Shown piece by piece: positions 56,701-59,700 of a stretch of 64,000 bases of DNA; within the stretch, counting starts at the first letter, position 1, and each line of letters begins with the position of its first letter. Source of the stretch: Escherichia coli O157:H7 (GTDB lineage Bacteria > Pseudomonadota > Gammaproteobacteria > Enterobacterales > Enterobacteriaceae). Made by a program: the position numbers. The stretch lies in assembly GCF_013167455.1 (NCBI RefSeq), contig NZ_CP038328.1; one strand, 5' to 3'.

Positions 56701-59700
56701 TAAAGCGATGCTGACATTGATTGTCTTCTCGTTTACGGTGTCGGTGTATTCGTCAGCGACCGTCACGCCAGGATCGTTGAACCTGGCACCGATCGCCATT
56801 GCCGATATGGATCAATCGCAGTTATCGAACCGGATCGTTAACAGCTTCTATCGCCCGTGGTTTTTGCCACCGGAGATGATCACCGCCGATGAGATGGATG
56901 CCGGACTGGACGCCGGGCGTTATACCTTTGCGATAAATATTCCGCCTAATTTTCAGCGTGATGTCCTCGCCGGACGCCAGCCAGATATTCAGGTGAACGT
57001 CGATGCCACGCGCATGAGCCAGGCATTTACCGGCAATGGGTATATCCAGAATATTATCAACGGTGAAGTGAACAGCTTTGTCGCGCGCTACCGTGATAAC
57101 AGCGAACCGTTGGTATCGCTGGAAACCCGGATGCGCTTTAACCCGAACCTTGATCCCGCGTGGTTTGGCGGGGTGATGGCGATCATCAACAACATTACCA
57201 TGCTGGCGATTGTATTGACCGGATCGGCGCTGATCCGCGAGCGTGAACACGGCACGGTGGAACACTTACTGGTGATGCCGATAACGCCGTTTGAGATCAT
57301 GATGGCGAAGATCTGGTCGATGGGGTTGGTGGTGCTGGTGGTATCGGGATTATCACTGGTGCTGATGGTAAAAGGCGTGTTGGGCGTACCGATTGAAGGC
57401 TCGATCCCGCTGTTTATGCTGGGCGTGGCGCTTAGTCTGTTTGCCACCACGTCAATCGGCATTTTTATGGGGACAATAGCGCGTTCAATGCCGCAACTGG
57501 GGCTGCTGGTGATTCTGGTGCTGCTGCCGCTGCAAATGCTTTCCGGTGGTTCCACGCCGCGCGAAAGTATGCCGCAGATGGTGCAGGACATTATGCTGAT
57601 CATGCCGACGACACACTTTGTTAGCCTCGCGCAGGCCATTCTCTACCGTGGTGCCGGATTCGAAATCGTCTGGCCGCAGTTCCTGACGCTGATGGCAATT
57701 GGCGGCGCGTTTTTCACCATTGCGCTGCTGCGATTCAGGAAGACGATTGGGACAATGGCGTAAGGAAGGGAAACTTGACTTCATACTGTGATGTCATACT
57801 ATTGATGTCATAAAGTGAAGTCATAAGGACATGCCATGAGAACCAAGGTACAGGCTTTACGGAAGAAACAAAAAAATACATTGGATCAAATATTTAAAAC
57901 TCCTGTTCCTCAAGGGATCAAGTGGTCTGATATAGAGTCACTGGTTAAAGCATTAGGCGGAGAAATTAAGGAAGGAAGAGGTTCGCGTTGTAAGCTCATA
58001 CTAAATATGAGCGTTGCGTGTTTCCATCGGCCTCATCCGTCGCCAGATACCGATAAAGGCGCTGTAGAAAGCGTGCGTGACTGGTTACTAAGTATAGGGG
58101 TAAAACCATGATCAAACTGAAGACGCCAAACTCTATGGAGATTGCCGGGCAACCTGCTGTTATCACTTACGTGCCAGAACTGAATGCATTTCGTGGCAAA
58201 TTCCTGGGCTTGTCAGGTTATTGTGATTTTGTCTCTGACAGCATTCAGGGGCTGCAAAAAGAAGGGGAACTTTCCCTGCGAGAGTATCTTGAGGATTGTA
58301 AAGCTGCGGGTATTGAGCCGTATGCGCGTACAGAAAAGATTAAGACCTTTACGTTACGCTATCCAGAATCGCTGAGTGAACGCCTTAATAATGCGGCTGC
58401 GCAGCAACAAGTCTCTGTTAATACCTATATTATTGAAACACTGAATGAGCGTTTGAATCATTTATAACTTATAGCGGCCCAACAATTTCTGTTGCGCCGC
58501 TATATTTTTGTGGCTCTTAAGATGCCTTTCTAACCAACCGATGCCCCTCATTCATCATCAGGATTTTGCTATACACATCTTCCTCGACGGCGTTTTTTGC
58601 TGATGCCATGACTCGTGCCAGATTCGCCTCGTTGTGATTATTCACATACGCTTTGCCGACGGCGGTGATAAACGCTTTGCGCAGATCGCTGGCGATATTT
58701 ACTTTAGCGACGCGATAATTAACAAAGCTGCGTAATATCTCCGGGGCGATACCGGAGCCGCCGTGAATAACCAACGGCACCGGACAGACTTCGGCAATGC
58801 GCTTCAGCAGGGGGATATCGATACGCGGTATATCGTCCAGGCCATGAACGTTGCCAATAGAAACTGCCAGCATGTCGCAACCGGTACGCTCGACAAAGGT
58901 CTTCACCTTTTCCGGTTCCGTTTTGCAATCGGCTTCGCTGACGTGATCATCTTCTTTGCCGAGAATCGCCCCCAGCTCCGCTTCAACCGGTACGCCATAG
59001 GATTTACAGAAATCGACAGCTTCCTGGGTGAAAGCGATATTCTCTTCAAAAGAGAATGCGGCACCGTCAATCATGACCGAGGTAAAGCCCGCGCGCACCG
59101 CCTGTTTAACATCCTCCTGGGTTTTCCCGTGATCCAGATGAAGACTGACCGGAACATCCATTTTATCGGCGTGACGTTTCACGATTTCATAAATGTAATC
59201 GTATCCCGAGAGTTGTGCATTGGTTGGCGCAATCTGAATGAAGTTGGGTAATCCCGAACGCTCAATAGCGTTTAAAATTGAAATTGTCGTCTCCAGATTG
59301 GTGGTATTAAATGCGCCCGCTAATACCCGTTTTTCCTGAATGCGGTCGAGCAGTATCCGTCCATTAACTAATGGCATATTGAAAACCTCATCTTTTAATA
59401 TCAGTTAATTATTCAGCTTCACCGAAGCGGTCGCGAAATAAGTCGGTGAGAGTCTGTATGGCCTCGTTTTCATCATCACCGTCGCAGCGTATTTCCACCG
59501 TTTTTCCGCCTTTTATTCCGGCGCGCATAATATTCATCATGCTGGTGGCATTAATATCATTACCCTCATAGTGCAGCGTCACTTTACAGCTATATTTTTT
59601 GGCGGCTTTCGCCAGACAGGCCGCCGGACGTGCATGCAGGCCAGTACTGTTTCTGACCTCCACGGTTTTATTCAACATAGTGTTCCTCTCGATGATGTAA

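What the first reader, a model, noticed from the sequence alone, without database searches (positions are those of the whole stretch)
57776..58467. hicAB-like toxin-antitoxin pair with a four-fold direct-repeat operator, at the boundary of the variable region
A 91-aa HicA-like ORF and a 119-aa HicB-like ORF overlap by 4 nt (ATGA). They are preceded by four TGAnnTCATA repeats at about one helical turn spacing, the classic arrangement for an autoregulated toxin-antitoxin operator. The HicA-like protein has GSR where the canonical HicA catalytic motif has GSH, so the toxin may be catalytically altered. Its position between the core gene yhhJ and the PTS island suggests it marks or stabilises an acquired segment.
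Basis: partly seen in the sequence, partly recalled or inferred. Interest (0 to 1): 0.45.

Follow-up and report, generated by a model that had tools for sequence, protein, structure and literature searches.

The report
HicAB toxin-antitoxin cassette lacking catalytic histidine
This is a real, already annotated HicA/HicB toxin-antitoxin gene pair with its own promoter, four repressor-binding repeats and a terminator; it belongs to a large, untested branch of the family, common in P2-type prophages, in which the usual catalytic histidine is replaced by arginine, and it is not linked to the neighbouring sugar-uptake island.

Summary
In this E. coli O157:H7 window, hicA (57836-58111, 91 aa) and hicB (58108-58467, 119 aa) overlap by ATGA. 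Both pass Pfam thresholds and RefSeq already names them HicA/HicB.

Four TGANNTCATA repeats (57776-57825) cover a TTGACT-16-TACTAT promoter. Their spacing is 13/14/13 bp, not one helical turn. Related cassettes in other genera and in prophages keep the four-site layout. Clades with a different HicB DNA-reading strand carry different upstream repeats, which supports HicB autorepression.

GSR is not a lesion of this copy. Arg51 is invariant in the close relatives, and no GSH occurs among the 147 top representatives. This clade has about 1,000 representative clusters. His64-x-Pro-His67-Pro is conserved even more strongly than Arg51. Every characterised HicA I found keeps the histidine, so activity in this clade is untested.

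Relatives sit mostly in the gpA-cos-gpQ defence hotspot of P2-like prophages.

The idea that the pair marks or stabilises the PTS island is not supported. The pair and the island assort independently in 5,426 E. coli genomes (580 both, 1,491 TA only, 1,056 island only). Citrobacter carries the pair at the same site without any island.

This is an ordinary TA cassette with a mildly interesting active-site variant.

The parts
57775..57802 (+). Sigma-70-type promoter: -35 TTGACT (57775-57780), 16-bp spacer, -10 TACTAT (57797-57802)
   Evidence: Consensus scan, 9 of 12 matches; sequence read. The function is inferred.
57776..57785 (+). Repeat 1, TGACTTCATA (palindromic core TGActTCA); overlaps the -35 hexamer
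   Evidence: The same TGACTTCA motif lies upstream of related cassettes.
57789..57798 (+). Repeat 2, TGATGTCATA; lies in the promoter spacer and runs into the -10
   Evidence: This 14-bp unit is deleted in the E. coli C11-type allele.
57803..57812 (+). Repeat 3, TGATGTCATA; lies just after the -10, over the expected transcription start
   Evidence: The position relative to the start site is inferred from the promoter call.
57816..57825 (+). Repeat 4, TGAAGTCATA (reverse complement of the repeat 1 core); abuts the ribosome-binding site
57825..57829 (+). Shine-Dalgarno-like AAGGA, 6 nt before the hicA ATG
   Evidence: Read directly from the sequence.
57836..58111 (+). hicA-like toxin gene, 91 aa. 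It has an N-terminal helical extension (residues 1-29) and a HicA dsRBD-like domain (30-86). Gly49-Ser50-Arg51 stands where canonical HicA has G-x-His. The motif Phe63-His64-Arg65-Pro66-His67-Pro68 is conserved.
   Evidence: PF07927 36.1 bits; RefSeq WP_001259386.1 'HicA family toxin'; clade conservation; AF2 model pLDDT 91; PHROG 8887 'toxin'.
58108..58467 (+). hicB-like antitoxin gene, 119 aa. It has an N-terminal beta-beta-beta-alpha HicB domain (about residues 9-67) and a C-terminal Arc/AmrZ-type ribbon-helix-helix domain (about 76-117).
   Evidence: PF05534 56.8 bits; the profile hits AmrZ at 6.5e-4 and Arc at 2e-3; AF2 model pLDDT 90, with top PDB matches 6g26_B, 6u0i, 2dsy and 6hpb_B, all HicB or HicB-like; RefSeq WP_000593555.1.
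58470..58509 (+). Intrinsic-terminator-like hairpin (58470-58504) followed by five U (58505-58509), 3 nt after the hicB stop
   Evidence: RNA fold -21.8 kcal/mol, z = -5.3 against 200 shuffles. The consensus scan missed it because a bulge interrupts its stem.

Best explanation
This is a self-contained, autoregulated type II toxin-antitoxin cassette of about 750 bp, of the HicAB kind with hicA first and a ribbon-helix-helix HicB (class 4 in Gerdes's 2024 scheme).

Proposed working, all steps inferred unless marked:
1. A single sigma-70 promoter drives hicA and the translationally coupled hicB. A hairpin terminator ends the transcript.
2. HicB dimerises through its C-terminal ribbon-helix-helix. 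It binds the four TGA-NN-TCA sites that cover the promoter from -35 to about +16, and so represses its own operon.
3. The N-terminal domain of HicB binds and neutralises HicA.
4. HicA belongs to a large clade that lacks the canonical catalytic histidine at the start of strand beta2. That position holds an invariant Arg51.
5. Two near-invariant histidines stand nearby. His64 ends beta3 and should be the cross-strand partner of residue 51. His67 aligns with the conserved PRHP histidine of E. coli HicA. I think these most likely supply the imidazole chemistry, so the protein is probably still an RNA-targeting toxin.

Shown here: family membership, folds, gene layout, conservation, and the co-variation of the repeats with HicB. 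Inferred: DNA binding, toxicity, and which residues are catalytic.

Biological role: the clade is typical cargo of the cos-adjacent defence hotspot of P2-like prophages, so phage exclusion or prophage addiction is the likely ancestral role. The E. coli copy is a stand-alone chromosomal cassette in the variable yhhJ-nikR gap.
For: - Pfam: both proteins score above the gathering cutoffs. RefSeq annotates them as HicA/HicB.
- The ATGA overlap is kept in nearly all of 71 related loci.
- HicA model: pLDDT 91, with element order H30-39, E43-46, E51-56, E59-64, H74-86. Solved HicA structures are among its best PDB matches; the best, 6g26_F, has TM 0.64 normalised to the target.
- HicB model: pLDDT 90, and its top PDB matches are all HicB. 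Its C-terminal domain hits AmrZ and Arc.
- Repeats: four in 50 bp, with one elsewhere in 64 kb, overlapping the promoter.
- Layout across species: a four-site layout is conserved upstream of cassettes that sit in unrelated flanks.
- Repeat type tracks the RHH strand. KTFTLRY (25 loci) has a mean of 3.6 TGAnnTCA and 0 GACACC. GKVTTRL (30 loci) has 0.1 and 2.4. GKFVLRV-type loci have GATACT.
- Clade size: 1,016 representatives at E <= 1e-10.
- Conservation: G49, S50, R51, H64, P66, H67 and P68 are invariant in A1. Of 147 top representatives, 139 have GSR, none has GSH, and the HxPHP motif is retained even where Arg is lost.
- R51 aligns with the catalytic His of 9svk_A and with His23 of E. coli HicA in the collinear hhalign alignment. 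In that alignment His67 aligns with His38.
- Terminator hairpin, z = -5.3.
- P2 hotspot context: 50 of 71 viral loci have a gpQ-like portal downstream and 44 of 71 a gpA-like gene upstream. This matches the hotspot defined in PMC9122126.
Against: - No experiment exists for this pair or clade in the literature I could search.
- The residue shown to be essential in every characterised HicA is absent (PMC11594946, PMC12297915). A dead toxin therefore cannot be excluded.
- The collinear profile-profile alignment that maps R51 onto His23 is weak (probability 21%, E 1e-3). hhalign prefers an unrelated 13-16 column helix match.
- Foldseek E-values for the HicA model are poor (0.5-2), as is usual for a 60-residue domain.
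- I could not read model coordinates, so the R51/H64/H67 proximity is deduced from hairpin geometry and was not measured.
- Neither protein matches any PADLOC defence model.
- In E. coli, toxin-disrupted alleles are common. A frameshifted 55-aa product was seen on 588 contigs, and a second allele has a stop at codon 2 and one repeat deleted.
- The operator co-variation rests on only three or four independent clades.
Confidence: 0.7

Rival explanations
1. The HicA-like protein is catalytically inert. Either the pair is a decaying TA remnant, or HicA acts only as an RNA-binding or co-regulatory partner of the HicB repressor and does not arrest growth.
For: - The canonical catalytic His is absent.
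- Mutating that His abolishes toxicity in all tested HicAs.
- E. coli tolerates frameshifted and N-terminally truncated hicA alleles, while the HicB protein in three divergent strains examined (EDL933, AR_452, C11) is identical, WP_000593555.1.
Against: - Decay does not produce invariance. G49, S50, R51, H64, P66, H67 and P68 are invariant across A1, which includes Acidobacteriota and Azospirillum entries. GSR and the HxPHP motif also hold in nearly all of the 147 best of about 1,000 representative clusters.
- The pair keeps its coupled layout and a tight autorepression architecture in mobile prophage hotspots. That is what one expects when the first gene is dangerous.
- Losing a toxin is harmless for any TA system, so disrupted alleles say little.
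Confidence: 0.2
2. One reading: the cassette marks, or acts as an addiction module for, the adjacent acquired PTS/aldolase island and stabilises it.
For: In the O157:H7 window the cassette lies directly between core gene yhhJ and the island. Stabilising mobile DNA is a classical TA role (established knowledge).
Against: - Counts in 5,426 complete E. coli genomes: cassette 2,070; island 1,637; both adjacent 580; cassette next to nikR with no island 1,491; island directly after yhhJ with no cassette 1,056.
- Independence predicts about 624 co-occurrences, against 580 observed.
- Citrobacter carries the cassette between yhhJ and nikR with no island. Serratia and Xenorhabdus carry it elsewhere.
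- The island has no mobility genes that would make it prone to loss.
Confidence: 0.04
3. The four repeats are not HicB operators. They would be sites for another host or phage factor, or just promoter-associated sequence.
For: No binding experiment exists.
Against: - The repeats travel with the cassette into unrelated genomic contexts.
- They change when the HicB DNA-reading strand changes.
- Other RHH-type HicBs (Y. pestis, B. pseudomallei) bind palindromic sites in their own promoters (PMC11594946; PMC10865869).
Confidence: 0.06

Closest known systems
[quoted passage not shown] Yersinia pestis HicA3/HicB3 (PDB 4P78) and Burkholderia pseudomallei HicAB (PDB 6G26)
   Same: - Gene order is the same.
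[quoted passage not shown]
- HicB has an N-terminal partial RNase H-like domain and an RHH DNA-binding domain.
- Repeated or palindromic operators lie in a single upstream promoter.
- Sources.
   Different: - The catalytic His (His28 or His24) is replaced by an invariant Arg51. A clade-specific His64 is added next to the shared His67.
- HicA carries a conserved N-terminal extension of about 25-30 residues.
- There are four operator sites in two pairs, rather than the two 15-bp sites described for Y. pestis.
- There is no detectable sequence similarity to any solved HicA (phmmer finds none at E <= 10; the profile gives E 0.55).
E. coli K-12 HicA/HicB (PDB 6HPB)
   Same: Both are HicA-fold toxins neutralised by a HicB N-terminal domain. 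The P-R-H-P motif after beta3 is shared (His38 aligns with His67 here).
   Different: - K-12 HicB uses a helix-turn-helix domain, and the K-12 operon has two promoters (PMC11594946).
- K-12 HicA is 58 aa and has catalytic His23.
- It sits at a separate locus and in a different clade. Published O157 'hicAB' expression data cite the K-12 HicAB work and give no locus identifier.
Accessory systems of the P2-like prophage gpA-cos-gpQ hotspot (old, tin and many others; Rousset et al. 2022)
   Same: Most relatives of this cassette in viral contigs sit exactly in that interval. PHROGs files both proteins as morons.
   Different: The window copy is not in a prophage. No defence phenotype has been shown for this cassette. 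It matches no PADLOC model. Neither the main text nor the held supplements of the Rousset paper list a HicA/HicB pair for the P2 hotspot; the only 'HicA' entry found is a Fic/HicA item in a supplement file that was cut when stored.

Membership tests
HicA toxin family (Pfam PF07927) | Sequence matches the family HMM above the curated cutoff | tested here: met
   36.1 bits against a cutoff of 27, E 6.8e-9, residues 30-80 aligned to profile positions 1-52 of 58.
HicA toxin family (Pfam PF07927) | dsRBD-like alpha1-beta1-beta2-beta3-alpha2 fold | tested here: met
   AF2 model pLDDT 91, with elements H30-39, E43-46, E51-56, E59-64, H74-86. Solved HicA chains 6g26_F, 4p78_C, 6hpb_C and 4c26 are among the top PDB matches (TM 0.51-0.64 by target), although E-values are weak at 0.5-2.
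HicA toxin family (Pfam PF07927) | Catalytic histidine at the start of beta2 (G-x-H; His23/24/28/36 in characterised members) | tested here: not met
   Arg51 occupies that position. GSR aligns with GSH of 9svk_A and with His23 of E. coli HicA in the collinear hhalign alignment, and it lies at the start of strand 51-56. Arg is invariant in A1, and no GSH occurs among 147 representatives.
HicA toxin family (Pfam PF07927) | Essential glycine two residues before the catalytic position (Gly22 in B. pseudomallei and N. gonorrhoeae HicA) | tested here: met
   Gly49 is invariant. The role of this Gly comes from PMC12297915 and PMC11594946.
HicA toxin family (Pfam PF07927) | Growth arrest or RNase activity, neutralised by the cognate HicB | not testable with these tools
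   This needs expression and RNase assays. No published test of this clade was found.
HicB antitoxin family (Pfam PF05534 / HicB fold) | Sequence matches the family HMM above the curated cutoff | tested here: met
   56.8 bits against a cutoff of 21, E 2.1e-15.
HicB antitoxin family (Pfam PF05534 / HicB fold) | N-terminal partial RNase H-like beta-beta-beta-alpha domain | tested here: met
   AF2 model pLDDT 90, with strands 9-12, 15-22, 27-32 and 40-43 followed by helix 46-67. The best PDB matches are HicB chains 6g26_B (probability 1.00), 6u0i and 6hpb_B, and the HicB-like 2dsy.
HicB antitoxin family (Pfam PF05534 / HicB fold) | C-terminal DNA-binding domain (RHH or HTH) | tested here: met
   The profile hits AmrZ (6.5e-4) and Arc (2e-3) over residues about 69-117. 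There are weak Pfam Arc and CopG hits. The model has helices 87-99 and 104-117 after a short strand.
HicB antitoxin family (Pfam PF05534 / HicB fold) | Binds operator(s) in its own promoter and represses it | not testable with these tools
   Only indirect support: four sites lie over the promoter, they are conserved with the cassette, and they co-vary with the RHH strand.
Gerdes class 4 hicAB operon | [quoted passage not shown] | tested here: met
   The class definition is in PMC10865869.
Known anti-phage defence systems (PADLOC-DB 2.0) | A protein matches a curated defence-system model | tested here: not met
   No family at E <= 1 for either protein.
P2-like prophage cos-adjacent hotspot cargo | Located between gpA and gpQ of a P2-like prophage | tested here: not met
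   The window copy lies between yhhJ and an aldolase/PTS block, with no phage genes. Relatives do meet the criterion: 50 of 71 viral loci have a gpQ-like portal downstream and 44 of 71 a gpA-like gene upstream.

The most novel reading that the evidence does not exclude
The GSR/HRPHP proteins form a large, unrecognised functional subclass of HicA in which the catalytic histidine has moved. It would have gone from the start of beta2 to the cross-strand position at the end of beta3 (His64, helped by His67 and Arg51). Alternatively, the protein poisons the cell without cleaving RNA. In its native setting, the P2-like prophage cos-adjacent hotspot, the cassette would work as an abortive-infection or phage-exclusion module. 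The E. coli yhhJ-nikR copy would then be a stranded chromosomal descendant.
Probability: 0.3. Interest if true: 0.55.

Novelty: new variant of a known kind. Interest (0 to 1): 0.33.

Why it matters
For genome annotation, nothing changes: the pair is already correctly named.

The useful points are three.

1. About a thousand representative clusters labelled 'HicA family toxin' lack the one residue that every mechanistic study of HicA calls essential, yet they are under strong constraint. The mechanism written for the family therefore does not cover them. A few point mutants (R51, H64, H67) would settle whether the active site has moved.

2. This clade is a recurrent occupant of the P2 prophage defence hotspot. 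That gives a concrete, cheap candidate for testing the proposal that HicAB modules act in phage defence.

3. The four-site operator and its clade-specific variants give a ready-made set of matched repressor/operator pairs.

The analysis also removes a tempting but wrong inference, that the cassette is tied to the neighbouring PTS island.

Tried and rejected
- NCBIfam gave no hit for either protein.
- phmmer of HicA against PDB sequences found nothing at E <= 10. For HicB it found only chance or weak RHH hits.
- phmmer of E. coli K-12 HicA against PDB found only itself, so I could not build a canonical HicA alignment from PDB chains.
- hhalign of the clade against K-12 HicA or its family picked a 13-16 column match. 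It paired the C-terminal helix here (VRDWLLSIGV) with the N-terminal helix of K-12 HicA (FRRWLESQGV). That says nothing about the catalytic site. Only the second alternative alignment was collinear, and it is weak.
- Published O157:H7 'HicA/HicB' expression papers cite the K-12 HicAB work and give no locus identifier, so I took them to concern the K-12-type locus.
- The non-toxic Erwinia amylovora HicA (59/136 aa pair) and P. aeruginosa PA1 HicA (60 aa, His24) belong to canonical clades and say nothing about this one.
- The HicA domain validated in DefensePredictor is a 472-aa fusion protein, not this pair.
- The Rousset 2022 text and held supplements mention no HicA/HicB pair in the P2 hotspot.
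- Rfam found nothing in 57500-58700.
- I considered predicting a fused HicA-linker-HicB chain. I rejected it because no interface information would be returned.
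Full report
**1. What is in the sequence**

The window is E. coli O157:H7. Bases 57700-58520 are 100% identical to EDL933 and many other O157 chromosomes.

Two + strand ORFs are present: 57836-58111 (91 aa) and 58108-58467 (119 aa). They overlap by ATGA.

Upstream there are four exact TGANNTCATA copies, at 57776, 57789, 57803 and 57816. The pattern occurs once more in the whole 64 kb window, against 1.93 expected in the whole window on both strands. The cluster is therefore not chance.

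The start-to-start spacing is 13, 14 and 13 bp, not one helical turn. Each copy has a small palindromic core, TGA-NN-TCA. The outer two cores are reverse complements of each other.

A TTGACT-16-TACTAT promoter lies at 57775-57802. It puts site 1 on the -35, site 2 in the spacer, site 3 over the expected start point and site 4 against the AAGGA ribosome-binding site.

Three bases after the hicB stop there is a 35-nt hairpin followed by five U (58470-58509; -21.8 kcal/mol; z = -5.3). The unit from promoter to terminator is about 750 bp.

**2. Family assignment**

- HicA: PF07927, 36.1 bits against a cutoff of 27.
- HicB: PF05534, 56.8 bits against a cutoff of 21.
- PHROGs holds both as moron families, 'toxin' and 'HicB-like antitoxin'.

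The AlphaFold2 model of HicA has pLDDT 91. It shows two N-terminal helices and then helix 30-39, strands 43-46, 51-56 and 59-64, and helix 74-86. That is the HicA alpha-beta-beta-beta-alpha order. Solved HicA chains are among its best PDB matches, with TM 0.51-0.64 normalised to the target. E-values are weak, as is usual for so small a domain.

The HicB model has pLDDT 90. It shows a beta-rich N-terminal domain with a long helix, followed by a two-helix C-terminal domain. Its best PDB matches are all HicB or HicB-like: 6g26_B at probability 1.00, then 6u0i, 2dsy and 6hpb_B. A profile of the family hits the ribbon-helix-helix repressors AmrZ (6.5e-4) and Arc (2e-3) over residues about 69-117.

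The module fits class 4 of Gerdes's 2024 scheme: hicAB order, with an RHH on HicB.

**3. The GSR question**

- A profile of the clade aligns GSR with GSH of the solved HicA 9svk_A.
- In the collinear hhalign alignment with the E. coli K-12 HicA family, Arg51 falls on catalytic His23 and His67 falls on the invariant His38 of the PRHP motif. That alignment is weak (probability 21%).
- Arg51 is the first residue of strand beta2 in the model. The literature places the catalytic histidine at exactly that point (PMC12297915).

But this is not a lesion of the O157 copy.

- In 108 homologues, G49, S50 and R51 are invariant, and F63-H64-R65-P66-H67-P68-S69-P70-D71-T72-D73-K74-G75 is nearly so.
- A full-library HMM search found 2,479 representative clusters at E <= 1e-3 and 1,016 at E <= 1e-10.
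- Among the best 147 representatives, 139 carry GSR, none carries GSH, and the HxPHP motif persists even in the few that lack the arginine.

Strands 51-56 and 59-64 form a hairpin with a two-residue turn, so residue 51 should pair with residue 64. This is my inference; I could not read model coordinates. If so, a clade-specific histidine sits right beside the position the canonical histidine would occupy.

Every characterised HicA keeps that histidine: E. coli, B. pseudomallei, Y. pestis, S. pneumoniae, S. meliloti, N. gonorrhoeae and phage Adephagia (PMC11594946 and PMC12297915). I found no paper on a histidine-less HicA. The clade's activity is therefore untested. A re-arranged active site is more likely than a dead protein, but it is not shown.

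**4. The repeats as operator**

Related cassettes were fetched from several places:
- Citrobacter, between yhhJ and nikR.
- Serratia, between murJ and argS.
- Xenorhabdus, inside a P2-like prophage.
- 78 viral contigs.

In the close clade, cassettes sit in flanks that share no similarity. Yet nearly all have three or four TGAnnTCA sites (mostly TGACTTCA), arranged as two pairs with 13-bp intra-pair spacing, just upstream of hicA. In O157 the two pairs are simply adjacent.

More distant clades have different repeats, and the change follows the HicB DNA-reading strand:

| HicB RHH strand | Loci | Repeats in the 110 bp upstream (means) |
|---|---|---|
| KTFTLRY | 25 | 3.6 TGAnnTCA; 0 GACACC |
| GKVTTRL | 30 | 0.1 TGAnnTCA; 2.4 GACACC |
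| GKFVLRV-type | 5 | 2.0 GATACT |

This is what a cognate repressor/operator pair looks like, though it amounts to only three or four independent events. RHH HicBs of Y. pestis and B. pseudomallei are known to bind paired or palindromic sites in their promoters.

**5. Genomic setting**

Counts among 5,426 complete E. coli genomes:

| State at the yhhJ-nikR site | Genomes |
|---|---|
| Cassette present (>= 80% of query) | 2,070 |
| PTS/aldolase island present | 1,637 |
| Both, adjacent | 580 |
| Cassette directly next to nikR, no island | 1,491 |
| Island directly after yhhJ, no cassette | 1,056 |

K-12 has rhsB-yhhH-ISEc1 at this site instead.

The sums close: 580 + 1,491 = 2,071 and 580 + 1,056 = 1,636. 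Independence predicts about 624 co-occurrences, against 580 observed. Citrobacter carries the cassette at the same site with no island. The cassette is therefore one of several independent occupants of a variable intergenic gap. It is not a marker or stabiliser of the island.

**6. Where the clade lives**

In viral contigs the cassette lies downstream of a P2 gpA-type replication gene in 44 of 71 loci. It lies just upstream of a divergently oriented gpQ-type portal gene, followed by the terminase gene, in 50 of 71 loci. That is the cos-adjacent gpA-gpQ interval, which Rousset et al. defined as a hotspot of anti-phage systems in P2-like phages (PMC9122126).

Neither protein matches a PADLOC model. 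No defence test of this pair was found. The HicA domain validated in DefensePredictor is a 472-aa fusion protein.

**7. State of the gene in E. coli**

The O157 allele is intact. It carries Leu54 where other E. coli alleles and most relatives have Phe.

Disrupted toxin alleles are common elsewhere. One is a frameshift at the GSR codons that gives a 55-aa product, seen on 588 contigs. Another, the C11 type, has a stop at codon 2 and one 14-bp repeat unit deleted, including the -10. The HicB protein in the three divergent strains I examined (EDL933, AR_452, C11) is identical.

**8. Verdict**

This is a genuine, already annotated HicAB cassette with a well-supported autoregulatory layout.

What goes beyond the annotation:
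- The toxin's non-canonical but highly conserved active-site region is a clade-wide trait.
- The clade is associated with the P2 prophage hotspot.
- The inferred link to the PTS island is refuted.

Interest is modest.

Noticed in passing
window 58470-58509: A strong hairpin plus U5 lies right after hicB and 8 nt from the stop of the convergent aldolase gene. The consensus terminator scan missed it because a bulge interrupts its stem. The sequence here differs between cassette-only strains (AR_452) and cassette-plus-island strains. Homology to cassette-only strains ends at about 58478, so the island junction lies at about 58479-58520.
   Followed up: partly
E. coli alleles of window 57836-58111 (P0094, P0113; L087 468-698): Disrupted toxin alleles are common in E. 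coli. One is a frameshift at the GSR codons, giving a 55-aa product seen on 588 contigs. Another, the C11 type, has ATG-TAA at codon 2 and lacks one 14-bp repeat unit (TGATGTCATACTAT, including the -10). The HicB protein in EDL933, AR_452 and C11 is identical (WP_000593555.1).
   Followed up: partly
window 58072-58108 (HicA residues 79-91): hhalign repeatedly prefers to align the C-terminal helix of this HicA (VRDWLLSIGVKP) with the N-terminal helix of E. coli K-12 HicA (FRRWLESQGVDV), at pairwise E about 1e-5, over the collinear domain alignment. It is probably a shared helix-Gly-Val pattern of the two dsRBD helices, but I did not explain it.
   Followed up: no
window 57763-58520 and loci L084, L085, L086: The yhhJ-nikR intergenic gap is a multi-state variable site in E. 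coli. It holds hicAB alone, the PTS/aldolase island alone, both, or rhsB-yhhH-ISEc1 (K-12). The island-only strain EC6868 has a REP-like GCCGCATCCGGC element at the junction.
   Followed up: partly
protein database names for homologues: Several homologues carry plainly wrong names. HicA homologues are called 'hexulose-6-phosphate synthase' (Pectobacterium, Leminorella, E. coli fragments) or 'uracil DNA glycosylase'. HicB homologues are called 'DNA repair protein'. One 90%-identity cluster also mixes the 55-aa HicA fragment with Kingella ABC-transporter proteins, which looks like a clustering artefact.
   Followed up: no
window 57995-57997 (HicA codon 54): The O157:H7 allele has CTC (Leu54). 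AR_452, the C11 allele and Citrobacter have TTC (Phe), and Phe is the commonest residue in the family. Leu does occur in 9 of 108 relatives, so the change is probably neutral.
   Followed up: no
L006 2834-3926 (P2-like prophage contig): In the P2-like hotspot the hicAB cassette is preceded by a DNA methyltransferase-like gene (236 aa) and a 122-aa ORF of unknown function. The hotspot there therefore carries more than one accessory module.
   Followed up: no
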